Shown here in pieces: positions 21,867 through 35,996 of a DNA stretch of 53,703 nt. The notes under the pieces are model-generated. The model worked only from the letters and a program-made list of their open reading frames with translations, had not been told where the DNA came from and ran no database searches. Source of the stretch: a virus (lineage: Duplodnaviria > Caudoviricetes); the IMG/VR virus record IMGVR_UViG_3300036719_001675, positions 1 through 53,703 of that record; one strand, written 5' to 3'. Position 1 is the stretch's first letter. Each line of letters begins with the position of its first letter. Position numbers and translations under genes: made by a program.

Positions 21867-23187
21867 GTTTGTGCCAGTTAAGAAATTGAAGGCATACGGT
21901 AAGAACCCACGAAAGGGTAATGTTCGTGCTATTGCAGAGTCACTTGCTACGAACAAGCAATACCGACCTATTGTCGTTCAAAAAAGCACTAATCAAATTC
22001 TTGCTGGAAACCATACATGGCAAGCGGCTAAGTCTCTTGGTTGGGATAAGATCGCTGTCGTTTATGTTGATGTAGATGATGAACACGCAAAGAAAATCGT
22101 TCTCGCAGACAACCGAACCAACGACTTAGCAGAATATGATGATCGTATTCTTTCAGAATTGCTAACAAGCCTTGAGACAATCAGTGGCACTGGCTATACC
22201 GAATCTGACATGGATTCAATCATGCAATCAATCAGCACAAGCATGATGGACATTGAAGACGCTGGAGCACAACTAGACGAACGGGCAAGATTAGCGGCAG
22301 ACCCATTTGCTGGCGGTATTCCTCTTGACGATGATGATGAAGATGATGACTTAGAAGCAGTATCTACTGAAGAAGTAGAAGACACGCTTGAAAACAAAAC
22401 CAGCGAACTTGCTGGAGTTGTTGAACTGGCAGAAGCAAAAACTTTTCCAGGTTGTGGCGCATGGGATTTTCCTCCAATGATTCCTGAAATGATGATTGAT
22501 GAATTGCCGTATAATCTGCGTACATGGGCAGGAAGCGCCACTAGAGATATTGACCATGATGGGCATTGGCTGTACAACTGGGGAGTAGATAGCACTTCAG
22601 GTATGCAAGACCTAAGTAAAGTAATGCTTTCGTTTTACACTCACGATGAATACTTTGACCGATGGTGGGAAAACACTTCTACTTATACTGCAAAACTTTT
22701 GAACTCTAGGGTCAAGTACGCAATCATGCCTAACTACACTTCTGGCGGTATGCCCAAAGCAATCTCTATTCTTCAAAACTACAAATCATGGTATGTTGCT
22801 AGGTATTTGCAAGAGGCTGGTATCAAAGTAATGCCAGATATGGAATGTCGCCCTGAACCAGAGTTTGTTCAAGCGTGGAAGAAATGTATGCCTAAGTCAA
22901 TCCCGTTTATGGCAGTTCAATTACAAAACCTTTTCACAAGTTCACGAACTGGCACTAGAGCAACAGAAGAAGATTGGCGAAATGCAGTTACTGAGACTTG
23001 TGATGGGCAAATTAAAGGAATGGATATTGGCAATATCCTTGTTTATGCACCAACCACTAAGTGGGATATGATTCAAGACTCATGGTCTAGAAAAGACATT
23101 AAATTGCACTTCTTCCCAACACGAATTGAACTCTTAGCAGCACGATCAAAAGTTCGGGGTGCAGAAAAAGAAGCGAGAGGCTTTTGA
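21838..23187 (+). CDS. ParB/Srx N-terminal domain + acidic linker + DUF4417-like domain
   Basis: NPRKGNV..IAESL...PIVV..ILAGNHTWQAA..LADNR; C-terminal FYTHDEYFDRWW...PNY...YLQEAGIKVMP. Confidence 0.75.
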   Translation: MEEFLFSQTEFVPVKKLKAYGKNPRKGNVRAIAESLATNKQYRPIVVQKSTNQILAGNHTWQAAKSLGWDKIAVVYVDVDDEHAKKIVLADNRTNDLAEYDDRILSELLTSLETISGTGYTESDMDSIMQSISTSMMDIEDAGAQLDERARLAADPFAGGIPLDDDDEDDDLEAVSTEEVEDTLENKTSELAGVVELAEAKTFPGCGAWDFPPMIPEMMIDELPYNLRTWAGSATRDIDHDGHWLYNWGVDSTSGMQDLSKVMLSFYTHDEYFDRWWENTSTYTAKLLNSRVKYAIMPNYTSGGMPKAISILQNYKSWYVARYLQEAGIKVMPDMECRPEPEFVQAWKKCMPKSIPFMAVQLQNLFTSSRTGTRATEEDWRNAVTETCDGQIKGMDIGNILVYAPTTKWDMIQDSWSRKDIKLHFFPTRIELLAARSKVRGAEKEARGF

Positions 23188-23882
23188 GTACAATATTTCT
23201 AGCACCTTATGGCGATCATGGGTCAGGCGTAAAATCAGCACCACATTCACTTTTGGGGTATCGCAATTCAATCGGCAAGACTCACTTACAATCGGCAGAA
23301 ATACCGTGCGCTACTACTGAAGAAATGTTAAACAACATTCCTCTTATTCTTTCTAACTATAAAGAATATGTAGTTATTGGTGGAAATCATGCGATTACTC
23401 TTGCAATTCTTCAATCACTTCAGGGTAAAAAAAATAGACCTTTTTTAGTGATGTATGACGCACACACTGACACTTATCAGCACAAGAGTGAACTTGATTG
23501 TGGCAACTGGTTACGGTTTGCAGAAGATGAAACTCTTATTTCAGGTGTTCACTGGAAGGGTATTCGTGATAAGTCTGCATACAACCTAAGTAATACTATG
23601 GACATTCCAAAGAGTGGTCATGTTCATGTAACTGTTGATCTAGATGTGCTTGAACCAAAAGAATACGGTTGGGCTTCAAATTTTAATGAGCCAGATGGAA
23701 TGTCATTAGACAAACTAATAAGCAGTATCTATTCAATACGAAAAAAAACCAAAGCAACTATCACAGCAGATATTGTTGAGTATGACGCTTTCAAAGATTC
23801 ATCAGGTGCAGGTCGCTATGCCTGTTCGCAAATTCTTGATGCTCTATTAGATATCATTAATCCATTAAAGAGTATTGAATAA
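23184..23882 (+). CDS. Arginase/agmatinase-family ureohydrolase
   Basis: GGNH, YDAHTD and VDLDV Mn-ligand motifs; DIVEY. Confidence 0.85.
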   Translation: MSTIFLAPYGDHGSGVKSAPHSLLGYRNSIGKTHLQSAEIPCATTEEMLNNIPLILSNYKEYVVIGGNHAITLAILQSLQGKKNRPFLVMYDAHTDTYQHKSELDCGNWLRFAEDETLISGVHWKGIRDKSAYNLSNTMDIPKSGHVHVTVDLDVLEPKEYGWASNFNEPDGMSLDKLISSIYSIRKKTKATITADIVEYDAFKDSSGAGRYACSQILDALLDIINPLKSIE

Positions 23883-23936
23883 ACAATAGCCCACTAGACA
23901 TAATGTATCTGTAACTACAACAGTTTGGAGAACATT

Positions 23937-24239
23937 ATGTTCGGACTTATTGACATGGAAATTGAAGGAATCATCAGCGGTTCAATGCCGACTCGTACTG
24001 GTCCTATCACTAACGCTAGGGGTAAGCCGTTAAAGCAGGGTTCGCCTGCTTACAACAAGCGCCTTGCCGAGCGTAAGGCAGAGATTCTTTCTGCCAAGAA
24101 GAAGCGAGAACGAGCAGCCGCTAAAAAGCCAGCAACAAAGAAGGCAGCCGCTAAGAAGCAGGCTCCTGCTAAGAAGACTGCCGCTAAGAAGGTTGCCGCT
24201 AAGAAGAAAGCACCAACCACACGACCTACTCGTCGGTAA
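23937..24239 (+). CDS. Histone H1-like basic protein with acidic N-terminal leader
   Basis: GGAG SD; AAKK/PAKK repeats. Confidence 0.8.
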   Translation: MFGLIDMEIEGIISGSMPTRTGPITNARGKPLKQGSPAYNKRLAERKAEILSAKKKRERAAAKKPATKKAAAKKQAPAKKTAAKKVAAKKKAPTTRPTRR

Positions 24240-24359: not shown

Positions 24360-25790
24360 GTGGCAAGCGATGACAAGGGCAAAGCAAAAGGCGTATTCAC
24401 AGAGGCTGGTGTAACTGGTCTTAGGCGTAGTGGTGGATATGTTCACGAAGAATTCTTGCCTCAACTGGCAGGGTATCGTGCAATTCAGGTGTACCGTGAA
24501 ATGCAGGATAATGACCCTGTAATTGGTGCAATTTTATACGCAATTGACAAACTCGTTCGTCAAGTGGCATGGCGTGTTCAGCCAGCCTCAACAAAACTTG
24601 AAGATCAAAAAGACGCTAAGTTTCTTGAATCGTGTCTAGGTGACTTGAATGTTGCTTGGGAAGACACAATCAGTGAGATCATGTCCATGCTTGCCTATGG
24701 TTGGTCGTTTCACGAAATTGTCTATAAGAAGCGCAATGGTTATACGAGTGACACAACGAAGACTTCTAAGTACAACGATGGAATGATCGGTTGGCAGAAG
24801 TTCCCAATTCGCTCACAAGAAACCCGTGACCGCTGGGTGTTCGCAGACAATGGCGACATTCTTGGTATGTGGCAGTCAGCCTCTCCAACATACTTCCCAA
24901 CATATATTCCAATTGAAAAGGCTTTACTGTTCCGAACGACAGTTTCAAAGAATAACCCAGAGGGTCGTTCAGTATTGCGTAACGCCTATCGCCCTTGGTA
25001 TTTCAAGCGCCGAATTGAAGAAATTGAAGCAATCGGTGTAGAGCGTGACCTTGCTGGATTCCCGATTATGTATGTTGACCCAGACATCATGCGTGAAGAT
25101 GCCTCTGGTATGAAAAGCACTGTATTTCAGGACTATAAAGATGTAATCATTAACATTCGTCGGGATCAGCAAGAGGGAATGATTCTTCCTGCTATGTACG
25201 ACGAAAATAACAACCTCATGTACAGACTTGAATTGCTATCTGCTGGCGGTGGTCGTCAATTTGATACAGACCGAATCATTACTCGCTATGACCAACGAAT
25301 TGCTACGACAGTGTTGGCAGACTTCATTCTGTTAGGTCAAGACATTGGCGGTTCATATGCACTGTCATCAGATAAGACGAGCCTGTTCGCTTTGTCTATC
25401 CGAACTTGGCTTGAAACGATTAAGACCGTTATGAATCAGCAGGCTATCCCACGCTTGTTTAGAGTCAATGGTATTGATACAGAAAAGTTGCCTGAACTTG
25501 TATATGGCGACATTGAAACGCCACCTCTTACCGAAATTGGCACATTCATTCAACAATTGGCAGGTGCTGGCGCACCATTGTTCCCTGATGACGCTCTTGA
25601 AAACCACCTTCGCAAAATGGCACACTTGCCCGAACGCCGTGAAGAATCAGCAGGCGTTGTTCAAGACGCTCAAGAAAAACTTTCTGGTCAAGATCAAGTT
25701 GACGCTTCCAAAGAAGCCAAGAATAATAAGAACGCAAAGAAACAAGAGACAGATCAAGAAGTCGCCCAAAGCATGACCACTAAGGAATAG
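24360..25790 (+). CDS. Portal protein (DUF935/Mu gp29-like)
   Basis: YREMQDNDPVIGA, NPEGRSVLR..YRPWYFK, IGVERDLAGFP, GSYALS; first gene of the head module. Confidence 0.9.
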   Translation: MASDDKGKAKGVFTEAGVTGLRRSGGYVHEEFLPQLAGYRAIQVYREMQDNDPVIGAILYAIDKLVRQVAWRVQPASTKLEDQKDAKFLESCLGDLNVAWEDTISEIMSMLAYGWSFHEIVYKKRNGYTSDTTKTSKYNDGMIGWQKFPIRSQETRDRWVFADNGDILGMWQSASPTYFPTYIPIEKALLFRTTVSKNNPEGRSVLRNAYRPWYFKRRIEEIEAIGVERDLAGFPIMYVDPDIMREDASGMKSTVFQDYKDVIINIRRDQQEGMILPAMYDENNNLMYRLELLSAGGGRQFDTDRIITRYDQRIATTVLADFILLGQDIGGSYALSSDKTSLFALSIRTWLETIKTVMNQQAIPRLFRVNGIDTEKLPELVYGDIETPPLTEIGTFIQQLAGAGAPLFPDDALENHLRKMAHLPERREESAGVVQDAQEKLSGQDQVDASKEAKNNKNAKKQETDQEVAQSMTTKE

Positions 25791-25792
25791 TC

Positions 25793-27244
25793 ATGCCTGC
25801 TACCTCAAACTTTCGTGGCAAGAAACTTCTTCAAGCCATTACTAATCTGATGGATAGCCTTGAAAGCAGATACCGTTCTGTTTTCTTGGAGACTATTGAG
25901 AACATTACAAATAGCCCTGATATAGCCGAAATTATTAGGGATATTCGCTTAGGAAATATCACCACAATTGACAACGCTACCCTCGCAAGAATTCAGGGCG
26001 TTCAACTGAACACATATGACCTAACGGTTGCCTCAAGGCAGGCTATGGCTTCAGGTGGCAAGATAACGGCTAAGACGGTAGGGCTTGAAGGTAAGTTCAA
26101 CCTACAGAACCCAAGAGCAATTGCTGCAGCCAGAACTCTTAGTGATGAACTCGTTGCCAATTTAAGTAAAACTGTTACAAAGAATCTGACCGACATTATT
26201 ACTGACGGTGTGTCAGGAACTGATTCTCTTTCGGAAACTATTCGCCGTATTAAAGATGAAATTGGATTAACGACACAACATTCAGCGGCAGTAAAAAATT
26301 ATCGCAAGAACCTCATTCAAACTGGAATGGATAAGGCGAAAGCATTAGCCCAATCAGAAAAATATGCGAAGAGATTGCTTAAATATCGTGCCGAAACAAT
26401 TGCACGAAGTGAAATAGCAATGGCGGTTAATAAAGGTCAGGCAGAGTTCTGGAAACAGATGAAAGATGACGGTTCTATCCCACCTACTGCAATGAGAATT
26501 TGGATTGCAGAAATGGATAGTAAAACTTGCGACATATGTGCGCCTTTGAATGGAGAACTAGCACCAATTGATGGTGCTTGGTCTACTGGTCTAGGGTTCT
26601 TTGACATACCGTATGCTCACCCTCGCTGTCGTTGTACTTCAGGGCTTGTATTCCCCAACAAAATCACCAAAAACGACCCAATTGGTTATGAGCAATGGGT
26701 TATTTCAAAAGGCGATTATGTAGGTCACCCATTCAGAGGTAATCAATGGACTAAAGTTGGTGGTGCAGGTGCTGGCGCTAAGAATGAAGCAAATGCCTCT
26801 CAAATTGATTGGAATGTTCTTTACGACAACGATGTTCCTGGGGAATTAGAGTCATATCTCGGAGATAATGCCGTAAAGTCCCTTGAAAATTGGATATTTA
26901 ACGCTAAATACCCAACTCAATGGCTTAAAGAAGTAGCAGGAAAAGACTATGAATATGAAGAGCATTATCAGACTCTTCAAGGTTGGTTAAAAGAAGCCAA
27001 TTTCCCCGATACGGTAACTGTTATTAGGCAGGGTACGCCAGACCCTAGGGGAGACATACGAAGTGGTTCTGCTATGGAAGGCTGGACAGGTGGCGCTATT
27101 GACGCTCAACATCATTATGGTTCTGACCGAAAAGTTTATGTAAGCAAAGTGCCAAGAAAAAATATCATTGGTATTGGTCAGATAGAAGAAGGAGAACTCT
27201 TCTATAAAACCGAAGGCGTAACAGTGACGGAACTGAAAAGGTAG
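25793..27244 (+). CDS. MuF/SPP1 gp7-like minor head protein with GHPFRGNQW tag and C-terminal ART-like domain
   Basis: RAETIARSE, TCDICAPLNG, HPRCRC; then ISK-GDYVGHPFRGNQW; then VIRQG..SGS..EEGE. Confidence 0.88.
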   Translation: MPATSNFRGKKLLQAITNLMDSLESRYRSVFLETIENITNSPDIAEIIRDIRLGNITTIDNATLARIQGVQLNTYDLTVASRQAMASGGKITAKTVGLEGKFNLQNPRAIAAARTLSDELVANLSKTVTKNLTDIITDGVSGTDSLSETIRRIKDEIGLTTQHSAAVKNYRKNLIQTGMDKAKALAQSEKYAKRLLKYRAETIARSEIAMAVNKGQAEFWKQMKDDGSIPPTAMRIWIAEMDSKTCDICAPLNGELAPIDGAWSTGLGFFDIPYAHPRCRCTSGLVFPNKITKNDPIGYEQWVISKGDYVGHPFRGNQWTKVGGAGAGAKNEANASQIDWNVLYDNDVPGELESYLGDNAVKSLENWIFNAKYPTQWLKEVAGKDYEYEEHYQTLQGWLKEANFPDTVTVIRQGTPDPRGDIRSGSAMEGWTGGAIDAQHHYGSDRKVYVSKVPRKNIIGIGQIEEGELFYKTEGVTVTELKR

Positions 27245-27846: not shown

Positions 27847-28371
27847 ATGGAAGCACAGATTACAAAAATAGATGATGATAAGCGCCTCGTATTTGGTTGG
27901 GCTTCAATTATCAAAGATGTAGAAGGAAAAGTCCTACTTGATCGCCAAAACGACTACATTGACTCTGAAGAAGAATTAGAAAAAGCCGCCTATTCGTATG
28001 TTCTAAATTCCCGTGATGGTGGAGAAATGCACATTCGTAAGGGTGTTTCAACAATGGTTGAATCGGTTGTTTTCAGCAAAGAAAAGCAAGAGGCAATGGG
28101 TATCCCTTCTGGCTCAATGCCCGTTGGTTGGTGGATTGGTTTCCGAGTCAATGATGAACGGGTATGGGAAGAAGTCAAAAAGGGTCAGTATTCAGGATTC
28201 TCTGTACACGGGACTGGTCAACGAAACCAAAACATTCTAAAAGACGGTGAATATACCGAAATTGAAAAGAATGATGAAGTGCAGGAAGAGAAATTTGACG
28301 GTGTTCGTGTTTCTAAAAAACTTTTGATGACATTGACCAAGGCACAAAAGAACAAGAGCAAAGACAAGTGA
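27847..28371 (+). CDS. XkdF-like prohead serine protease
   Basis: KIDDDKRLVFGWAS, DRQND, GEMH, VES, GWWIG, GFSVHG. Confidence 0.88.
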   Translation: MEAQITKIDDDKRLVFGWASIIKDVEGKVLLDRQNDYIDSEEELEKAAYSYVLNSRDGGEMHIRKGVSTMVESVVFSKEKQEAMGIPSGSMPVGWWIGFRVNDERVWEEVKKGQYSGFSVHGTGQRNQNILKDGEYTEIEKNDEVQEEKFDGVRVSKKLLMTLTKAQKNKSKDK

Positions 28372-28376
28372 TCTAA

Positions 28377-31091
28377 GTGGGAATTTCAAAAGACAACCCG
28401 ACTTCTTCTGATGTTCATGTAGACGCAATTATGGGAGCAGTTAAGAATTCTGCCATGACAAGTAAAAAGCGACGCTTGAAGAAAAAGCGTATGGCTATGG
28501 ATATGTCTCTTAAGAAGGGTGACTTTGTAGGACACCCATTCCGAGGTAACCAGTGGACTAGGGGAATGGGCGTAAGTCGTATGGCAGGGCGATCAGCACC
28601 AAAAGACCCAACCGCAGGTGCTCAAGGTGGTGGAAGTGGCGTAGTTAACCCAACAGTTAAAATTACCAATGATAGACCTCTTGGTTTTCGTGAAGCAGGA
28701 TTGCCAGCACACGGAAGAAAAACAGGAACGGCTGTTGACGATCTCTTAACTATGGGCGCTAAAGATAGTACACAAGCGTCAGAAGGTCGTTCTTTATACA
28801 GAGACACTCAAAGTATGCTTGACACTGTTCACCGAAATTTAACGCAAGTACAAAGTAATGTTCTTTCTCTTAAGCGTAGACCAGACCAACCAGATAGCGA
28901 ACTCTTAGGAATTCGTAACAGAAGTCTATTGGCTGAAGTAAATTCAATTCAGGCTAAGTTACGGGCGCAAGAAGCAGAGTCTTTGGCTACAGCAGCGCGT
29001 GGTTCAAGAAAAATTCAAGCACAAGACTATGGCGCAAGTTCAGAACTTCAAGCACAACAAGCAGGAGCAGTTAATAGTGCTGCAAAAAAGGCACTATATC
29101 TTGGCGATGTAAACAAGCGGTTAGACTCATTCTTAAAAGAATTTAAAGGTAGCCCTGACGCTTTATTTTCTAAAGAATCAGCAGAAGTAACTACTAAGAG
29201 AACAAAAGGGGCTTCCCCCACTAATGAAGTAACACGCAAGTTACCTTCTGCTACTGTTACTCACCCAGACCTTGAAAATCCTTCTTCGCCAATGTGGAAG
29301 CAAAAAGTTCTAGGAGAAATGAAGTCTGTTTCTGCTACTGTTCAATCAGGTGGCGAAACTTATAGGGTTGACGGTATTCACCCAATCATTGCAGGAGTAT
29401 CACCAAAAGTTAAGTTTACCCCTGCGCTTATTAAAGAATTACAAGGTTTGTCTTTTGCTCAACAATCAATGATTACATCTGGTCATACAAGCACTGCCTC
29501 AATGATGGCAGAAATTAAAGCAATTAAAGCGAAAAAAGTTAAAGCAGGTTCTAATGCAGACAATGGAGAAGGTTTCAGCCTGACTACTGACCTTATGCTT
29601 AAACATAAAACAAAAGCACGAAAAGACGAAGAGTGGGATTCTTTAACTGAACCAGAAAAAAGAAGGTATGTAGACGCACCTGAGCATATGTCTCACGATG
29701 TTGCTATGCAATTAGCAATAGGTGTAAGGGGCGCTTTTGACCAACATTGGACACCGTTATCTGCTGGAGAAGTTGTCGTTAGTAGAACTGTTAGTAAGCC
29801 ATATGAAGCAAGTGCTCAAGAACTGCTTGGTAAGGGCGACTTCATTGGTCACCCATTTCGTGGTAACCAATGGGTTAGAGGTCGTGGTGGAATGGGTATT
29901 GGGGGAATGGTTGGTCGTGCCGCACCTAAAGACCCAACGAGTGGTTTTCAAGGTGGTGGCAGTGGAAAAGTAGCAAAGCCAAAGAAAACAAAAGAGGAAA
30001 AAGATGCGGAATGGGAATCACTAAACAATAAAGGTAAGATCATATATAGCGAGGCTCCTCAAGATTACAGCCACGATCAAGCGATGATGTTGGCTCGTAT
30101 GCCTCGCCGTGTTGTTAATAGGGGTCTTAGTGAAGCACAAACAAGGGAATACTGTAGCCTTTCACCAAGAGAAGGTGCTCACTATGAATACGCCAGTGCA
30201 AGCCGTTCTCATGCCAGCATTATGGCGGATATTAAAGCAGGGAAACCAGTTCGTGAACCTGCCGCTGGAATGAAGAGAGCAACCCCAGCAGACATTGCCC
30301 GTATCAGAAAAGAAGGTGTAGTTGTTGCTCCTGCATGGTCTGAAGTTCATGTGGCTAAGTCAAAATCTAGCAGGCTACAAGTGACAGGAATTGATGAGAA
30401 GGGGCGTGTTCAATCTGGCTATTCCAAAGCACACAAAGAACAGACTTCTAAAGCAAAGTTTGCTCAAGTAGCAGATGTTGAAAAAACACTGACTAAGTTA
30501 GATTCAGCACTAAAGCGTGATGTAGCGGCTGGAAAAGACGAGGCAGTTGCTTGTTTATTGATTCGCAAGATGGGCTTGAGACCAGGAGGTACTGGCGATA
30601 CTGGTGGTGCAGAAACAGCGTTTGGTGCTACTACTCTTCAACGCCGTCATGTTACCGTTCGTGGCAATACGACTACATTTGAATTCACAGGTAAAAAAGG
30701 CGTGAAGATTAAACTCGTTTCTAGAGACCCTGAAATTGCTAAGGCAATGACTGCACAGTTGGCAAAAGGTAAGCGTGGCGGTGACTCCCCACTATTTGAA
30801 TCTTCGGCAACTAAAGTGAATCAGTATTTGAAGCAGAACACTAGCCAAGACTTTAGCCTCAAAGACTTACGAACTGCATTGGCAACACGACAGGCTTTTG
30901 CATTGCTAAGATCAGCACCAGCACCGACTACGATGAAAGAAGCAAGAGCATTGCGTATGTCTATCGGTAAAGAAGTGGCACAGTTACTAGGAAATACGCC
31001 GAACATGGCACTTACCTCTTACATCAACCCCACGATCTTTGCTGGATTAGTCAAGCAATTCGGACCGCTTACAGGAAAGGCTAAATCGTGA
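28377..31091 (+). CDS. Putative internal virion polyprotein: capsid-like N-peptide, two GHPFRGNQW units, C-terminal type IB DNA topoisomerase
   Basis: TopIB motifs PAWSEV, LQVTGIDEKGRVQ, GLRPG, GATTL, FTGKKG, KDLRT, LGNTP..SYINP (about 30270-31091). Confidence 0.88.
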   Translation: MGISKDNPTSSDVHVDAIMGAVKNSAMTSKKRRLKKKRMAMDMSLKKGDFVGHPFRGNQWTRGMGVSRMAGRSAPKDPTAGAQGGGSGVVNPTVKITNDRPLGFREAGLPAHGRKTGTAVDDLLTMGAKDSTQASEGRSLYRDTQSMLDTVHRNLTQVQSNVLSLKRRPDQPDSELLGIRNRSLLAEVNSIQAKLRAQEAESLATAARGSRKIQAQDYGASSELQAQQAGAVNSAAKKALYLGDVNKRLDSFLKEFKGSPDALFSKESAEVTTKRTKGASPTNEVTRKLPSATVTHPDLENPSSPMWKQKVLGEMKSVSATVQSGGETYRVDGIHPIIAGVSPKVKFTPALIKELQGLSFAQQSMITSGHTSTASMMAEIKAIKAKKVKAGSNADNGEGFSLTTDLMLKHKTKARKDEEWDSLTEPEKRRYVDAPEHMSHDVAMQLAIGVRGAFDQHWTPLSAGEVVVSRTVSKPYEASAQELLGKGDFIGHPFRGNQWVRGRGGMGIGGMVGRAAPKDPTSGFQGGGSGKVAKPKKTKEEKDAEWESLNNKGKIIYSEAPQDYSHDQAMMLARMPRRVVNRGLSEAQTREYCSLSPREGAHYEYASASRSHASIMADIKAGKPVREPAAGMKRATPADIARIRKEGVVVAPAWSEVHVAKSKSSRLQVTGIDEKGRVQSGYSKAHKEQTSKAKFAQVADVEKTLTKLDSALKRDVAAGKDEAVACLLIRKMGLRPGGTGDTGGAETAFGATTLQRRHVTVRGNTTTFEFTGKKGVKIKLVSRDPEIAKAMTAQLAKGKRGGDSPLFESSATKVNQYLKQNTSQDFSLKDLRTALATRQAFALLRSAPAPTTMKEARALRMSIGKEVAQLLGNTPNMALTSYINPTIFAGLVKQFGPLTGKAKS

Positions 31092-32332
31092 TTGAATTTA
31101 CTCCACGCACAGAAGAAGAAGAAGCACAACTTACCGCAGACATGAAGGCTTTCTTTGAGACTATTCAGGATAGTGACATTGAAGTTGATGAATGGTTAGG
31201 CGATGAATACAGTGAAGAAGACGATGGAGAGAATGGCGAAGAACTAGGCGACATTGGCGAAATGGTTGGTATCACCAAAGCCCAACCATTGAAAGACCCT
31301 AAAGGTGGTCTCACTGCCGCTGGTCGTGCTAAGTACAATCGTGAAACTGGTTCTAACTTGAAGCCTGGAGTTACTGGTGCGGCAGATACGCCTGAAAAAA
31401 TGCGCCGTAAAGGTTCTTTCCTTACTCGCTTCTTCACAAACCCAAGCGGTCCAATGGTTAATGATAAAGGCGAACCAACACGCCTAGCATTATCAGCAAA
31501 CGCATGGGGAGAACCAGTTCCGAAGAATCGTAGCGATGCCGCCAAACTTGCCGCAAAGGGAAGAAGCCTCTTGGCTAGATACGAAAATGTAAAAAAAGGC
31601 GATTATGTAGGACACCCTTTTAGGGGAAATCAGCACACTCGTGTTGCTATTGCCGCAAGAACAAAAGAAATAATGGGGCTTTTAACTAAAAAAGCAGGGG
31701 AGCAAGTTGCAAATGGTCTAAAGCCTTTAGTGGAAGCAGCAGTAGAAGAATTTCAGATAAATGGTGCTTCAAATGAACCTCTTCTAGTCAATGGCAAAAA
31801 AGTTTCTATGGGCGGTCAAGTAGTTACTACCGCTGGTTTTTTAGACCTGCTTGTTAATGAGGTAGGAATGAAAGCAGTGTTTGGTCGTGATTTTTCAGCA
31901 GGTGATTTCAAAGAAGGCGAGAAGTTCCTTAAAAAAGGTGGCGGTCTTACCCAATGGTTTGACGAGAAGTGGGTTGACATTTCACGACCAAAAGAAGGCG
32001 GTGGCTACGAACCTTGTGGTCGCCCTGATGCTCATAAAGGTCATTATCCTAAATGTGTACCTGCCGCCCGTGCAGAAAGAATGACTCCTGAACAAATTAA
32101 GTCTGCCATTAGTCGTAAGCGTCGTGCAGAATCAAAAACGGTACGCCAAGACAAAAAGCCAATTATGGTTGAGACCATTAAAAAGGAAAATATTCCTGTA
32201 AATACTGAACTTTACAACAAAGTAAAGGCAGAGGCTAAAGCAAAATTTGATGTTTACCCATCTGCTTACGCCAATGGTTGGTTGGTTCAAGAGTACAAGC
32301 GTCGTGGTGGCAAATATAAAACTTCCGAATAA
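31088..32332 (+). CDS. Putative internal virion polyprotein (DUF6321-like, GHPFRGNQH unit, DUF5872-like modules)
   Basis: KDPKGGLTAAGR..NLKPGV; GLTQWFDEKWVD..CGR..YPKCVP; LYNKVKAEAK..PSAYANGWLVQEYKRRGG. Confidence 0.8.
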   Translation: MIEFTPRTEEEEAQLTADMKAFFETIQDSDIEVDEWLGDEYSEEDDGENGEELGDIGEMVGITKAQPLKDPKGGLTAAGRAKYNRETGSNLKPGVTGAADTPEKMRRKGSFLTRFFTNPSGPMVNDKGEPTRLALSANAWGEPVPKNRSDAAKLAAKGRSLLARYENVKKGDYVGHPFRGNQHTRVAIAARTKEIMGLLTKKAGEQVANGLKPLVEAAVEEFQINGASNEPLLVNGKKVSMGGQVVTTAGFLDLLVNEVGMKAVFGRDFSAGDFKEGEKFLKKGGGLTQWFDEKWVDISRPKEGGGYEPCGRPDAHKGHYPKCVPAARAERMTPEQIKSAISRKRRAESKTVRQDKKPIMVETIKKENIPVNTELYNKVKAEAKAKFDVYPSAYANGWLVQEYKRRGGKYKTSE

Positions 32333-32405: not shown

Positions 32406-33293
32406 ATGAATCGGTTGACTGATATGGAATTTGACGAGATTAGTCTTGTTACTCGCCCTGCCAATCAATTGAGTAAAGTGGTACTTTTCAAAAGCGACGA
32501 ACAACAGGAGCAATCAGTGACTACTGAAGTTGACAAAGGTTACGGAAAAATGGGCATGAAGAAGAAAATGAAGCCCATGACCGACGAAGAAATTATGGCT
32601 ATGTCCGAAGAGGAAATTGCTGCTATGGAAGACGAAGAGCCTATGAAAAAGGGTTCGGGTATGAAGCGTCGTGGTCGCCCAGTTCGTAAAGACGACGACC
32701 TTGATGAAGAAACCTCAGAAGATGTTATTGATCTTCCGAACGAAGTTTTTGAATACATTTCAGCACTTGAATCTGCAAATGCAGAACTCCTTGACCAAGT
32801 TGAAAAACTGGCTAAAAGCGTTGAAGTTGTTGCCGAAGAAGAAGACATTATGAAGTCGGCAGACCCTCAGATCGTGGCACTCGTCAAGTCTTTTGAAGAA
32901 CGAGCAAAAGCCGCAGAAACCATTGCTAAGTCGGAACGAGATTTCCGTCTTGAGCGTGAATTTGTTAGCAAGGCTTCTACCCTTAACGCATTGCCAATTG
33001 AATCTGATTCATTCGGTAAGGTTCTCAAGGGTGTTGCCGAATCAGTTTCTAGTGAACAGTTCAAGGTGCTTTGGGAAGTTCTCAGTGCCGCTAACTCGGC
33101 GCTTGCCGAAAGCAACCTTTTCACTGAAGTGGGCAAGTCGGGTGACTTTGACAATGATGGAGCAACTAGCCCCATCAACAAAGCCGCAGAACGAATTCTT
33201 GCTACCACACCAAATCTGACTCGCGAGCAGGCAATTGCCAAGGCTTTAGAATCAGACCCCAACCTTTACACAGCCTACTTACGAGGTAACTAA
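32406..33293 (+). CDS. Capsid scaffold protein with N-terminal protease-like EISLV..PAN peptide; internal start at 32517
   Basis: Helical and acidic; many [ILVM]xK[SAGD] sites; AGGAG + GTG at 32517 in frame. Confidence 0.8.
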   Translation: MNRLTDMEFDEISLVTRPANQLSKVVLFKSDEQQEQSVTTEVDKGYGKMGMKKKMKPMTDEEIMAMSEEEIAAMEDEEPMKKGSGMKRRGRPVRKDDDLDEETSEDVIDLPNEVFEYISALESANAELLDQVEKLAKSVEVVAEEEDIMKSADPQIVALVKSFEERAKAAETIAKSERDFRLEREFVSKASTLNALPIESDSFGKVLKGVAESVSSEQFKVLWEVLSAANSALAESNLFTEVGKSGDFDNDGATSPINKAAERILATTPNLTREQAIAKALESDPNLYTAYLRGN

Positions 33294-33295
33294 TC

Positions 33296-33688
33296 ATGGC
33301 AATTCAAGCGTCACAACCACTTAAAATTTCACTTGTTGCTGGAGCAGACCTTTCTGCCAAGCAGTTTTACTTCGTGAAGTTGAACTCTTCAGGTCAGGCA
33401 GTCGTTTGTGCGGCTGTTACTGACATTCCTGTAGGAATTCTTCAGAACACGCCTGCCTCTGGTTCAGTTGCAGAAGTCACTGTTGTCGGTGTTAGTAAGG
33501 TTTCCTCAGATGCAGGATTGACCGCTGGCAACCAAATTGGTACGAGTGCAGATGGTCAAGCGGCTGCTTATACCGCTGGCACTGACACCACGAAGTACAT
33601 CGTTGGGCAAATGCTCACGACTACTGGAGCAGCCGCTGTAATCGGTACTGCTGTTATTAACTGCGTCGCTCCTAGCCGAGCCGCCTGA
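33296..33688 (+). CDS. Capsid cement/decoration protein (DUF2190-like)
   Basis: AGADLS..QFYFVKL, GILQN, position between scaffold and MCP. Confidence 0.8.
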   Translation: MAIQASQPLKISLVAGADLSAKQFYFVKLNSSGQAVVCAAVTDIPVGILQNTPASGSVAEVTVVGVSKVSSDAGLTAGNQIGTSADGQAAAYTAGTDTTKYIVGQMLTTTGAAAVIGTAVINCVAPSRAA

Positions 33689-33702: not shown

Positions 33703-34662
33703 ATGCCTCAGCCCACATCAACACAGGTTCATGTTGACGCAATCTTGACTAACATCTCGGTTGCTTTCATTCAAGACCAAGGCAATTTCATCGCTAACCA
33801 AGTTTTCCCGACTGTGCCAGTTGAGAAGCAGAGCGACAAGTATTTCAAGTATGCAAAGGGTGACTGGTTCCGTGATGAAGCAGCGCTTCGTGCTCCTGCA
33901 ACCGAATCAGCAGGTTCTGGCTATGGCTTGACCACTGACACCTATAGCACTCTCGTCTATGCTTTCCACAAGGACATTGACGATCAGGTTCGTGCTAACA
34001 GTGACTCGCCGTTGAACCCTGATCGTGACGCTACGCAATTCGTTACCCAGCGTATGCTTCTTCGTCAGGAAATTGACTGGAGTGCCAAGTATTTCACCAC
34101 TGGCATTTGGGCAACCGACAAGGTAGGTTCAACTGACTTCACGCAGTGGAGCAACTACACTTCGTCTGACCCGATTGAAGACATTGAAGCAGGTAAGAGT
34201 ACAATGTTGACAAGCACTGGCTTCATGCCGAACACTCTTGTTCTTGGCTACGATGTGTTCCGTCAATTGCGCCACCACCCTGATGTAGTTGACCGTATCA
34301 AGTACACCTCGTCTGAAGTGCCTGCCGAAGGTATCCTAAGCCGTTTGTTCGGTGTTGATCGTGTTCTCGTTACCCGTGCAATCAAGAACAGTGGCGCTGA
34401 AGGTGCTTCGGATTCGTTTGCTCAGGTTCATGGCAAGAACGCCGCCTTGTACTATGTTGCACCATCACCTGGCTTGCTTACTCCTTCGGCTGGTTACCAG
34501 TTCGCATGGCGTGGCGTAAGCGATGGAATGGGTCAGAACATCGGAATTACTCGCTTCCGTCGCCCAGAACTTCGTGCAGACCGCATTGAGGCTCAAATGG
34601 CTTGGGATTACAAGGTCGTTTCGTCTGATCTTGGGTACTTCTTCAGCAGTTGCGTAGCCTGA
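33703..34662 (+). CDS. Major capsid protein (HK97 fold)
   Basis: HVDAILTNISV, FPTVPV.KQSDKY, PNTLVLG; size and position. Confidence 0.9.
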   Translation: MPQPTSTQVHVDAILTNISVAFIQDQGNFIANQVFPTVPVEKQSDKYFKYAKGDWFRDEAALRAPATESAGSGYGLTTDTYSTLVYAFHKDIDDQVRANSDSPLNPDRDATQFVTQRMLLRQEIDWSAKYFTTGIWATDKVGSTDFTQWSNYTSSDPIEDIEAGKSTMLTSTGFMPNTLVLGYDVFRQLRHHPDVVDRIKYTSSEVPAEGILSRLFGVDRVLVTRAIKNSGAEGASDSFAQVHGKNAALYYVAPSPGLLTPSAGYQFAWRGVSDGMGQNIGITRFRRPELRADRIEAQMAWDYKVVSSDLGYFFSSCVA

Positions 34663-34677: not shown

Positions 34678-35097
34678 ATGAATCGTTTTACTAAAGGTCT
34701 AGGACTTTTCGGTGGGATTGTCTCATCTGGTCCTAGTCGTAACTTAGGTATTCATTCAGTGAAGCGTACTTCGGCAACTGTTGCTGATGGTGCTTCAATG
34801 GTTGCTACTGCTGCTCACATTGTCACGAACACAGTTGTCAGTGCTACGCCTACTACTGGTCGTAACTTGACAACTGCTACTGGTGCTCAAATCATTGCTT
34901 TGTTGCCTGACGCTAATGTTGGCGATTGTACGGAATTCACAGTCGTTAACCTTGCCGCCGCTACTCATGCAATTACTTTGATTGCTGGTGCTTCGGGAGT
35001 AACTATTGTCGGTTCGGCAGTTGTTTCTGCCGCTTCGTCTGGTACTTTCTTGGTTCGTTACGACTCAGCCACAGCGGTTACTTTCATTCGTAAGTAA
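34678..35097 (+). CDS. Putative minor structural/decoration protein
   Basis: AGGAGG SD; Ala/Thr/Val-rich beta protein after the MCP. Confidence 0.65.
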   Translation: MNRFTKGLGLFGGIVSSGPSRNLGIHSVKRTSATVADGASMVATAAHIVTNTVVSATPTTGRNLTTATGAQIIALLPDANVGDCTEFTVVNLAAATHAITLIAGASGVTIVGSAVVSAASSGTFLVRYDSATAVTFIRK

Positions 35098-35102
35098 TCA
35101 CC

Positions 35103-35996
35103 ATGAAAGACCTAGAAGGCTTACGCTTACAGGCGCTTTTATCAATTGCCAAAGGAGACTATGACGGTCACCCTTTTCGTGGCAATCAGTGGACTCGTAG
35201 GGCTAGTCGTGGTCGTGCTGCCCCCAAAGACCCTACTGCTGGCTCTCAAGGTGGCGGTTCTGGTAAAGCCAAACGGCAAGTAGATGAAATAAAAACCGAC
35301 ATTCAACGGTTTGGTGGTGGTGGAGGTATGGCTGCAACGATGTCTCGCCTTGATGCTCTTGATGCTCAGGCTAAAGCATTGTTATCAAAGCCTGCTGTCA
35401 AGATTGACAGTTCTCTTCCAAAAGAATCGCAAGAAGTATTAACAGCCCTAAATAATAGGTTTACTGAGAGAGTTAAGCGTTTTCACCCTAAAGATATACC
35501 TGATATTCAACAAAAAGTTCTTGAAGGTATAGAAGAGGGTAAAAAATGGGTTTCTACAGTTGGCGGTAACGAAGGTTATGTTAAAACTGGTAAAAAAAGA
35601 GCCGACACAGAAATGGATAGCGCTCTTAGCCATCAAGTTGATCGTTTTGCTAAATTCTTAGGAATTCGTGCTGGAATAGAAATTGCATCAGCAAAAAGTG
35701 GTAGCAAATCTTCAACTCGCAAACCTTCAACTCAAAACCCTACAACTCCTAAGCCTGGTTCAGCAGGGTCAACCAAAGAAATTCTAAGGCGAGAAGCCCG
35801 AAGAATATTAGCCGAAGCGCCAACTGCTCCTAAACCTGCTAAAGCGCCAACTGCACCTAAGCCAACTAAGAAGAAGACTAAAAAAGAAAAAGACGCTGAG
35901 TGGGAAGTTCTTACCGCTAAACAAAAGAAAATTTACGAAAAAGCGCCAGCAGATATGTCTCACGACGACGCTATGGCTCTTGCTTTGGGCTTGTAA
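35103..35996 (+). CDS. Putative internal virion protein with GHPFRGNQW tag
   Basis: IAK-GDYDGHPFRGNQW, APKDPTAGSQGGGSG and EW..SHDDAMALA shared with the 904-aa protein. Confidence 0.8.
   Translation: MKDLEGLRLQALLSIAKGDYDGHPFRGNQWTRRASRGRAAPKDPTAGSQGGGSGKAKRQVDEIKTDIQRFGGGGGMAATMSRLDALDAQAKALLSKPAVKIDSSLPKESQEVLTALNNRFTERVKRFHPKDIPDIQQKVLEGIEEGKKWVSTVGGNEGYVKTGKKRADTEMDSALSHQVDRFAKFLGIRAGIEIASAKSGSKSSTRKPSTQNPTTPKPGSAGSTKEILRREARRILAEAPTAPKPAKAPTAPKPTKKKTKKEKDAEWEVLTAKQKKIYEKAPADMSHDDAMALALGL

What the first reader, a model, noticed from the sequence alone, without database searches (positions are those of the whole stretch)
28377..28433. Cargo polyprotein begins with a mimic of the major capsid N-terminus
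Seen: MGISK-DNPTSSDVHVDAIM versus MCP MPQPTSTQVHVDAIL (33703-33747), with PTS and VHVDAI identical (9 of 11 positions), placed right after an ISK site. Inference: molecular mimicry of the MCP N-arm lets the protein dock into the capsid lattice or scaffold, a second packaging signal distinct from the GHPFRGNQW tag.
Basis: partly seen in the sequence, partly recalled or inferred. Interest (0 to 1): 0.75.

Follow-up and report, generated by a model that had tools for sequence, protein, structure and literature searches.

The report
Capsid-mimic tag on packaged phage proteins
A phage head protein starts with a short peptide copying the free end of the capsid protein, and this peptide proves to be a widespread portable tag on the head protease and on enzymes probably packed inside phage heads.

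Summary
The 904-aa topoisomerase-IB ORF (28377-31091) starts MGISK-DNPTSSDVHVDAIM. The major capsid protein (MCP, 33703) starts MPQPTSTQVHVDAIL. That is 9 of 15 identical without gaps, and none of 200 shuffled windows reached 9.

It is not a one-off. A profile of the peptide finds 66 protein clusters among 1.84 billion. Their consensus is hydrophobic-x-K, then xxPTxSDVHV[DP]x[IV]MG, then a Lys/Arg run. The module sits at N-termini, inside polyproteins, and before or after the XkdF head protease. It accompanies topoisomerase IB, ADP-ribosyltransferase, zeta-toxin, Acb1 and DUF6321 domains.

The module resembles its own phage's MCP more than other phages' MCPs.

The register is striking. The conserved Lys aligns with the MCP's Met1. 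All 8 MCP types that carry a short leader have [VI]-x-K at exactly that place.

Best reading (about 0.5): a portable head-incorporation tag that imitates the MCP N-arm. It is bounded by inferred protease sites after Lys. Binding and cleavage are not shown.

Main rival: it is only a shared protease-recognition element.

I rate it a new variant of the known capsid-targeting peptides.

The parts
27847..28371 (+). XkdF-type head maturation protease (174 aa). Here it stops before the module.
   Evidence: Pfam Peptidase_S78_2, E = 2.5e-22. PHROG head maturation protease families match. In relatives L002, L003, L008 and L064 the same ORF runs on into a GHPFRGNQW-bearing extension.
28377..28391 (+). 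GTG start and 5-residue leader M-G-I-S-K. I3-x-K5 is the conserved hydrophobic-x-K, and cleavage after K5 is inferred.
   Evidence: The frame opens at the GTG, after TAA 28374-6. Across 66 clusters, K at H-9 occurs in 54 of 66 and a hydrophobic residue at H-11 in 54 of 66. P0063 has the same start.
28392..28433 (+). Mimic of the MCP N-arm: D6-M19 (DNPTSSDVHVDAIM).
   Evidence: Conserved positions in 66 clusters: P 65, T 54, V 65, H 66, V 59, M 46.
28434..28490 (+). Spacer and Lys/Arg run (G20-R38, ...KKRRLKKKR). The MCP has no counterpart.
   Evidence: Every module in alignment A2 and in the 66 clusters is followed by a basic run.
28491..28556 (+). MAMDMSLKK, which holds a second hydrophobic-x-K (L45-K46-K47), followed by GDFVGHPFRGNQW.
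   Evidence: All 5 GHPF motifs of the window are directly preceded by hydrophobic-x-K, as are 10 of 10 GHPF-bearing clusters listed.
28377..31091 (+). 904-aa cargo polyprotein: module, GHPF motif, unknown middle part, second GHPF motif, topoisomerase IB.
   Evidence: Pfam Topoisom_I at residues 685-877, E = 3.2e-21, and Top1B_N_bact.
33703..33759 (+). MCP N-arm (M1-S19). This is the sequence being imitated.
   Evidence: The N-terminal motif is conserved in the MCPs of the 66 IMG/VR loci. P4 is invariant and H10 nearly invariant in 55 sequences. pLDDT is 52-56 for residues 1-20 in an otherwise confident model.
33703..34662 (+). Major capsid protein (319 aa, HK97 fold).
   Evidence: phrog_1005, E = 4.6e-97. 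AF2 pLDDT 85.6. Foldseek best match is 3bjq, followed by solved phage capsids and encapsulins.
32406..33293 (+). Probable scaffolding protein (295 aa, acidic). It is a candidate partner of the N-arm and is rich in hydrophobic-x-K.
   Evidence: Its position is between the cargo genes and the decoration/MCP genes. It has 17 hydrophobic-x-K against 6.7 expected from composition. No family assignment of function.

Best explanation
The first 47 residues of the 904-aa protein form a portable head-incorporation tag with four parts. (1) A short leader ends in hydrophobic-x-Lys (I-S-K5). [quoted passage not shown] (3) A Lys/Arg run follows. (4) A second hydrophobic-x-Lys (L-K-K47) sits just before GDFVGHPFRGNQW. 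I propose that the tag places the protein inside the assembling procapsid by engaging whatever the MCP N-arm engages there. That could be the scaffold's coat-binding end or the N-arm socket of a neighbouring MCP. I further propose that the XkdF protease then cuts after the Lys residues. The first cut would leave a free N-terminus in the same register as the MCP's own. The second cut would free the cargo, which here includes a topoisomerase IB, for ejection with the DNA. What is shown: the similarity, its conservation as protein, its spread, its register and its domain company. What is inferred: translation from GTG 28377, binding, cleavage after Lys, and packaging.
For: The similarity is beyond chance. 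The module recurs in 20 of 66 related IMG/VR loci at E <= 1e-5, with 4 weaker hits, and many of those loci are short fragments. It also recurs in 66 clusters of 1.84 billion representatives. Codon differences among relatives are mainly synonymous. Placement is free, as expected of a tag. In 15 clusters the module lies within the first 26 residues of a protein that starts with M. In others it lies deep inside polyproteins. In the 13 protease-bearing clusters it follows the protease domain in 8 and precedes it in 5, sometimes as the very last or first about 25 residues. A bare cleavage site at such extreme ends would serve little purpose. Among the 65 module-bearing clusters scanned, Pfam finds XkdF protease (13), DUF6321 (11), DUF5872 (8), topoisomerase I (4), ADP-ribosyltransferase (4), zeta toxin (3) and Acb1 (2). 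This is the repertoire of packaged polyvalent proteins (Iyer 2017, PMC5512222, passages read). Identity of the module to its own MCP is 7.27 of 15 against 5.82 to other MCPs, and 1 of 20,000 shuffles reached that. On register, the module's K aligns with MCP Met1. Of 48 distinct MCP N-terminal contexts, 33 start at H-9 with a small second residue, so Met is removed under the MetAP rule (textbook knowledge). Five start at H-8 with N, Q or K, so Met is kept. Eight carry a leader and all eight have [VI]-x-K at H-11 to H-9. The same mature N-terminus, H-8, is therefore predicted for all 46, and for a cargo cut after K. The same hydrophobic-x-K precedes all 5 GHPF motifs. The scaffold has 17 such sites against 6.7 expected. 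The MCP N-arm is not packed in the monomer model (pLDDT 52-56), as expected of an arm that binds in trans. In other phages, scaffold ends contact the MCP N-arm in the procapsid interior (PMC12749128, passages read).
Against: There is no experimental or structural evidence of binding, cleavage or packaging for any member. GTG 28377 has no Shine-Dalgarno sequence. Seven cultured relatives have no second module in the stretches I scanned: RDJL Phi 1, KPP23, Ottawa and ValentiniPuff, and Waltz, RHph_Y52 and 13VV501A. The first four carry the conserved MCP arm and an XkdF protease. The protease in those phages therefore enters the head without the tag. The register rule fails in 2 of 48 contexts (L066, RDJL Phi 1) and in 3 further distant cultured phages (Waltz, RHph_Y52, 13VV501A). 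The own-versus-other test is confounded by kinship of the loci. In this window the protease itself carries neither the tag nor a GHPF motif. If both Lys sites are cut, the mimic is separated from the cargo, so it cannot be a permanent anchor.
Confidence: 0.5

Rival explanations
1. The module is only a substrate-recognition element of the XkdF protease. The enzyme evolved to recognise the MCP leader/N-arm junction. Cargo polyproteins and the protease itself copy that junction so that they are cut at the right places. On this view the copied arm binds nothing but the protease.
For: The conserved hydrophobic-x-K lies directly before the copied segment in 54 of 66 clusters and in 8 of 8 leader-type MCPs. 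The module lies between domains in polyproteins. An XkdF protease is present in 4 of 4 cultured relatives tested. The closest precedent is recalled, not read: phage 80alpha capsid and scaffold proteins share an N-terminal peptide because one protease trims both.
Against: 33 of 48 MCP types have no leader to remove, yet they conserve the arm. The arm therefore has a role in the MCP apart from cleavage. GHPF motifs have the same hydrophobic-x-K but a different downstream side, so the enzyme would not need the VHV segment. Modules at the extreme N- or C-terminus of the protease would release only a few residues. A 14-18 residue similarity is long for a scissile-site motif.
Confidence: 0.25
2. The module has some other role in the head that it shares with the MCP arm only by descent. 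Examples are contact with the portal or MuF protein, DNA binding through the basic run, or a signal for exit through the portal at infection.
For: A Lys/Arg run always follows the copied arm and has no counterpart in the MCP. The module-bearing genes lie between the portal/MuF genes and the MCP gene.
Against: The module keeps tracking its own MCP over MCP identities of 45-90%. That is not expected if only common descent links them. Nothing points to the portal specifically.
Confidence: 0.15
3. In this particular genome the peptide is not made. Translation starts at a downstream ATG (28431, 28455 or 28491), and the 54 bases are a recent untranslated remnant of a protease-cargo fusion that was split.
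For: There is no Shine-Dalgarno sequence before GTG 28377. In relatives the protease ORF continues where it stops here.
Against: The frame opens exactly at the GTG and every conserved module position is intact. P0063, 92% identical overall, has the same called start and an identical first 28 residues. Two other clusters, P0002 and P0035, begin with a similar MGGIS leader. The downstream ATGs have no better ribosome-binding site. Genes without a Shine-Dalgarno sequence occur elsewhere in this operon, for example the scaffold and the 297-aa gene.
Confidence: 0.07

Closest known systems
Phage T4 capsid targeting sequence of the internal proteins (Mullaney and Black 1996, cited in PMC9024508; passages read)
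   Same: A short peptide on proteins that are packed inside the head and ejected with the DNA. It is portable and is thought to be removed by the head protease after assembly.
   Different: The T4 signal is N-terminal only and is not described as a copy of the capsid protein's own terminus. The module here also occurs internally and on the protease, and it carries a basic run. Targeting has been demonstrated for T4 and is only inferred here.
Phage P1 DarB N-terminal packaging signal (PMC9024508; abstract and passages read)
   Same: The N-terminal 30 residues suffice to bring a large anti-restriction protein, or a reporter, into the capsid.
   Different: No sequence relation to the module was tested or seen. 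No mimicry of the P1 capsid protein is reported in the passages read.
HK97 maturation protease encapsidation tail (Duda, Oh and Hendrix 2013; only the title was seen, in the reference list of PMC12749128, and the content is recalled)
   Same: A terminal peptide of the head protease brings the enzyme into the procapsid. In 8 of 13 protease-bearing clusters the module follows the protease domain.
   Different: As I recall, the HK97 tail binds the capsid protein's scaffold (delta) domain. The MCP here has no delta domain and there is a separate scaffold gene. In this window the protease lacks the module.
Encapsulin cargo-loading peptides (recalled). Encapsulin shells are among the structural neighbours of this MCP (8t6r, 8wol, 6x8m)
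   Same: A short conserved terminal peptide marks diverse cargo enzymes for enclosure in an HK97-fold shell.
   Different: As far as I recall, encapsulin peptides do not imitate the shell protein's own N-terminus. No protease or DNA is involved.
Scaffold or size-redirection proteins that bind the MCP N-arm (80alpha scaffold and SaPI1 CmpB, P22, phi29; PMC12749128, passages read)
   Same: They establish that the MCP N-arm is a docking element in the procapsid interior, for which different proteins compete.
   Different: In those systems the partner binds the arm. Here a third protein carries a copy of the arm.
Polyvalent proteins of phages (Iyer et al. 2017, PMC5512222; passages read)
   Same: Multi-domain proteins encoded beside MuF and portal genes, which combine effector domains and are predicted to be delivered with the DNA.
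   Different: The passages retrieved propose processing by a fused metallopeptidase. Searches of that text for 'linker' and 'XkdF' gave no occurrence, so I saw no mention there of the module.

Membership tests
Capsid targeting sequence / propeptide of phage internal proteins (T4, P1, phiKZ-like type) | A short peptide at the terminus of a protein encoded in the head gene module. | tested here: met
   Residues 1-47 of the ORF at 28377. The ORF lies between the protease gene and the scaffold/MCP genes.
Capsid targeting sequence / propeptide of phage internal proteins (T4, P1, phiKZ-like type) | The peptide suffices to bring a foreign protein into the head. | not testable with these tools
   This needs a reporter fusion and procapsid purification.
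Capsid targeting sequence / propeptide of phage internal proteins (T4, P1, phiKZ-like type) | The peptide is removed by the head protease at a consensus site. | tested here: inconclusive
   Conserved hydrophobic-x-K lies on both sides of the module and in 8 of 8 leader-type MCPs. No cleavage data exist.
Head-protease encapsidation tail (HK97 gp4 type) | The peptide is part of the protease polypeptide. | tested here: not met
   In the window the protease ends at 28371 and no frameshift can join it to the module. The feature is met in relatives: 13 of 65 module-bearing clusters carry the XkdF domain.
HK97-fold major capsid protein (the imitated partner) | HK97 fold, with a flexible N-arm ahead of the E-loop. 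| tested here: met
   AF2 pLDDT 85.6 and pTM 0.80, with residues 1-20 at pLDDT 52-56. Foldseek matches 3bjq at E = 9e-21, then solved capsids.
Peptidase_S78_2 (XkdF) head protease | Profile match above the curated cut-off. | tested here: met
   79.7 bits against a cut-off of 24. Catalytic residues were not examined.
Polyvalent protein (Iyer et al. 2017) | Two or more unrelated effector domains in one polypeptide, encoded next to MuF/portal genes. | tested here: inconclusive
   Only one named domain (topoisomerase IB) is found in the 904-aa protein. About 430 residues have no family. The MuF and portal genes lie 0.6-4 kb upstream.

The most novel reading that the evidence does not exclude
N-arm mimicry is a general cargo-loading principle of this large capsid lineage. 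After a cut behind the conserved Lys, the tag presents a free N-terminus in the exact register of the MCP's own. It then occupies the N-arm's binding site on the scaffold or on a neighbouring MCP. Any protein that carries the tag, including ready-made anti-defence enzymes such as Acb1, ADP-ribosyltransferases and topoisomerase IB, is thereby loaded into the head and delivered with the DNA. The tag would then predict the packaged proteome from sequence alone, and could be used to load foreign proteins.
Probability: 0.3. Interest if true: 0.85.

Novelty: new variant of a known kind. Interest (0 to 1): 0.7.

Why it matters
Peptides that direct proteins into phage heads are known from only a few model phages, namely T4, P1 and the HK97 protease. 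How the many polyvalent effector proteins encoded beside MuF genes get into capsids is an open question. Here a single short motif marks the head protease and a varied set of enzymes in 66 protein clusters. That motif is a copy of the capsid protein's own free end, in a fixed register. If it is a loading tag, three things follow. It gives a sequence rule for finding proteins that phages inject ready-made, including anti-defence enzymes. It proposes a loading mechanism not described before, in which cargo competes for or shares the N-arm's partner. It also offers a handle for packing foreign proteins into capsids. No family in Pfam, PHROGs or NCBIfam covers the module. My literature searches found no description of it. 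Supplementary files of papers were not available to me.

Tried and rejected
1. Complex prediction of MCP residues 17-319 (53-row alignment) with the 39-residue module (17 rows) gave 'no answer', with scores 0.00 and 0.00. It says nothing either way.

2. The first MCP fold, from 17 sequences, was unusable at pLDDT 42.6. The 55-sequence alignment gave pLDDT 85.6.

3. I tested for a longer homology between the cargo N-terminus and the MCP. BLASTP against the L023 MCP extended to 80 columns (33% identity, E = 3e-9). The profile-profile comparison kept only 18 columns, so I reject the extended homology.

4. I checked for a programmed frameshift or read-through joining protease and cargo. It is excluded, because TGA 28369-71 and TAA 28374-6 block both frames.

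5. I considered that the conserved leading Val of internal modules might be an internal start codon. It is GTT or GTC in relatives, so this is rejected.

6. The third in-window match, at 23598 (7 of 15), lies inside an arginase-like ORF and I treat it as chance.

7. The argument that the MCP arm is conserved in protease-less phages failed. All 4 cultured relatives tested have the protease, 3 of them above the family cut-off.

8. tblastn of the module region against cultured phages gave one weak GHPF hit only.

9. Searches for closer DNA relatives using the cargo N-terminus found none. The protease query found 2 loci.

10. Sequence and profile searches of the PDB found only 3bjq, so no solved assembly shows what this N-arm touches.

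11. A search with the GHPFRGNQ string found 0 papers. The XkdF search returned 78 papers, none of which characterises the enzyme in the listing I saw.

12. The earlier-findings tool was not open, and one paper was not held.
Full report
**What the window is.**

The window is a complete virus record of 53,703 bases. The finding lies in the head-gene block, which reads as follows:
- Mu-type portal, 24360-25790
- MuF protein, 25793-27244
- XkdF-type protease (Peptidase_S78_2), 27847-28371
- a 904-aa ORF ending in a topoisomerase IB, 28377-31091
- a 414-aa DUF6321/DUF5872 protein, 31088-32332
- a probable scaffold, 32406-33293
- a decoration-like protein, 33296-33688
- the major capsid protein (MCP), 33703-34662
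- a second decoration-like protein, 34678-35097
- a 297-aa protein, 35103-35996

The MCP folds confidently as an HK97-type protein (pLDDT 85.6). Its best structural match is 3bjq, followed by solved phage capsids and encapsulins.

**The observation.**

The 904-aa ORF begins V(M)GISKDNPTSSDVHVDAIM and the MCP begins MPQPTSTQVHVDAIL. Nine of 15 ungapped positions agree.
- This is the best non-self match of the MCP 15-mer in all six frames.
- None of 200 shuffled windows reached 9; the maxima were 6, 7 or 8.
- A profile-profile comparison aligns module positions 2-19 with MCP positions 2-19 (E = 2.5e-6) and nothing further.
- A longer pairwise alignment to one relative's MCP is therefore not upheld.

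**It is a recurrent module.**

Searching IMG/VR with the MCP returned 66 related loci with 29-96% MCP identity. Nearly all conserve the MCP N-terminus, PTxxDVHV[DN]xxLTNISVAY.

A profile of the second copy found it in non-MCP ORFs of 20 of these loci at E <= 1e-5, with 4 weaker cases. Many loci are short fragments that lack the upstream genes.

In relatives the module is usually not N-terminal.
- It lies deep inside ORFs of 581-1636 codons (L002, L003, L008, L010, L018, L024, L064).
- It lies at the C-terminal end of the protease (L062).
- It lies after a protease domain in a 758-codon ORF that continues into a P-loop domain (L033).
- It lies at the N-terminus of a 742-codon protease-scaffold type ORF (L041).

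Among L003, L004, L005, L008 and L010 the codon differences inside the module are synonymous. Selection therefore acts on the peptide.

**Spread.**

A profile of 17 modules (alignment A2) was searched against 1.84 billion representatives. It found 66 clusters at E <= 1e-3. Counted from the invariant His:

| Position | Residue | Clusters (of 66) |
|---|---|---|
| H-11 | hydrophobic | 54 |
| H-9 | Lys | 54 |
| H-6 | Pro | 65 |
| H-5 | Thr | 54 |
| H-3 | Ser | 49 |
| H-2 | Asp | 45 |
| H-1 | Val | 65 |
| H+1 | Val | 59 |
| H+2 | Asp / Pro | 41 / 19 |
| H+5 | Met | 46 |
| H+6 | Gly | 35 |

A Lys/Arg run follows.

Fifteen clusters start with Met and hold the module within their first 26 residues. 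One of them, P0063, is 92% identical to the window's protein (842 of 911). It has the same start and an identical first 28 residues.

Pfam on 65 of the clusters gives:
- XkdF protease, 13
- DUF6321, 11
- DUF5872, 8
- topoisomerase I, 4
- ADP-ribosyltransferase exoenzyme, 4
- zeta toxin, 3
- Acb1, 2
- single cases of UDG, HNH, GNAT and others

In the 13 protease-bearing clusters the module follows the protease domain in 8 and precedes it in 5. No Pfam, PHROG or NCBIfam model covers the module.

**Coupling to the MCP.**

I compared 15 non-redundant phages (17 pairs, minus L008 and L010, which duplicate L003). The module shares 7.27 of 15 positions with its own MCP arm against 5.82 with other phages' arms. 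Only 1 of 20,000 shuffles reached that.

Examples are DAH in both sequences of L065, NSVHVD in both of L033, and a switch from xIL/xIM to xPL in both partners of the distant group. Kinship among the loci inflates this test, so I treat it as supportive only.

**The register.**

The profile alignment puts the module's Lys opposite MCP Met1. I sorted the 48 distinct MCP N-terminal contexts.
- 33 have ATG at H-9 followed by P, T, A or S, so the Met should be removed (MetAP rule, textbook knowledge).
- 5 have ATG at H-8 followed by N, Q or K, so the Met should stay.
- 8 have a leader of 5-12 residues before the Lys, and all 8 carry [VI]-x-K at H-11 to H-9.
- 2 do not fit (L066 and RDJL Phi 1).

Three more distant cultured phages also do not fit: Waltz, RHph_Y52 and 13VV501A.

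In 46 of 51 contexts, therefore, the mature MCP would begin at H-8, provided the leaders are cut after the Lys. A cargo module cut after its Lys would begin at the same place.

The same hydrophobic-x-K directly precedes all 5 GD[YF]xGHPFRGNQ[WH] motifs of the window. It also precedes the GHPF motif in 10 of 10 GHPF-bearing clusters listed. The scaffold holds 17 such triplets against 6.7 expected from its composition, while the MCP holds 2 against 3.0.

I infer that the XkdF protease cuts after Lys in hydrophobic-x-K. No experiment known to me tests this. From memory, the HK97 protease also cuts its capsid protein after a Lys.

**The local arrangement.**

In L002, L003, L008 and L064 the protease ORF continues beyond the point where the window's protease stops. 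It runs into a short helical segment and a GHPFRGNQW motif.

In the window the protease ends at TGA 28369-71. The cargo frame has TAA at 28374-6 and then GTG 28377. No frameshift or read-through can join the two.

GTG 28377 has no Shine-Dalgarno sequence, but neither have ATG 28431, 28455 or 28491. Several neighbouring genes also lack one. The 5-nt gap fits re-initiation after the protease stop, which is an inference.

**Interpretation.**

Free placement at either end of the protease, at cargo N-termini and between cargo domains fits a portable head-incorporation tag. So does the company of effector-type enzymes.

The tag is built on a copy of the MCP arm, and the arm is conserved in MCPs that have nothing to be cleaved off. 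This argues that the copied segment does what the arm does, which is to bind a partner during assembly.

In other phages the arm is the contact for scaffold ends in the procapsid interior, and after expansion it binds the E-loop of neighbours (PMC12749128, passages read). Which of these partners the tag uses is open.

The two flanking Lys sites suggest that the tag is released after assembly, as in T4 (passages of PMC9024508 read). The rival explanation is that the whole element is only a protease-recognition site. That rival explains the Lys and the inter-domain position. It does not explain the arm's conservation in leaderless MCPs, the different downstream side of the GHPF sites, or the modules at extreme termini.

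**Limits.**

- Nothing here shows binding, cleavage, packaging or even translation of the peptide in this genome.
- The complex prediction gave no answer.
- Seven cultured relatives have no second module in the stretches I scanned; the four tested carry the arm and the protease. The tag is therefore an accessory of one, mostly uncultured, branch.
Virion proteomics tables of related phages might hold N-terminal peptides that bear on the cleavage claim.

Noticed in passing
window 26693-26749, 28500-28556, 29817-29873, 31580-31636, 35136-35192: There are five copies of K-GD[YF]xGHPFRGNQ[WH], in the MuF protein, the 904-aa protein (two copies), the 414-aa protein and the 297-aa protein. Each is directly preceded by hydrophobic-x-K. 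The motif string was found in no paper. Its role is unknown.
   Followed up: partly
window 28596-28640, 29922-29966, 35220-35264: There are three copies of APKDPTxGxQGGGSG, each 14-17 residues after a GHPFRGNQW motif.
   Followed up: no
window 29634-29717, 30012-30095, 35901-35984: There are three copies of a 28-residue module, W[DE]xL...Y..AP..SHDxAMxLA. Two are in the 904-aa protein and one is at the C-terminus of the 297-aa protein.
   Followed up: no
window 33296-33688 and 34678-35097: The two small ORFs that flank the MCP gene match the first half (profile positions 17-130) and the second half (141-245) of the same PHROG, phrog_673. Either a decoration-type gene was duplicated, or it was split around the MCP gene.
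   Followed up: no
L002 6082-6800, L003 2422-3200, L008 421-1100, L064 1-400: In relatives the XkdF protease ORF runs on into a short MxEFxxGxLKS...QAMAIALSE segment and a GHPFRGNQW motif. The window's protease is cut short before this.
   Followed up: partly
window 32406-33293: The probable scaffold holds 17 hydrophobic-x-K triplets against 6.7 expected from composition. The protease holds 10 against 5.3, and the MCP 2 against 3.0.
   Followed up: partly
P0001-P0066: Module-bearing proteins include two with an Acb1 (anti-CBASS) domain, four with an ADP-ribosyltransferase exoenzyme domain and three with a zeta-toxin domain. This hints that such enzymes may be delivered ready-made in the capsid.
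   Followed up: no
window 23184-23882: An arginase/agmatinase-like 232-aa ORF lies just upstream of the portal gene. My reading rests on its motif and was not checked against families. It holds the 7-of-15 chance match to the MCP arm.
   Followed up: no
window 23925-24239: A 104-aa ORF has a Lys/Ala/Pro-rich tail that resembles histone H1-like DNA-binding repeats.
   Followed up: no
L023, L024, L018, L064 modules; P0001, P0007, P0008, P0021: In one branch the module is followed not by GHPFRGNQW but by K-HAxHDQKxHG[NS]W. This may be a variant of the same second motif.
   Followed up: no
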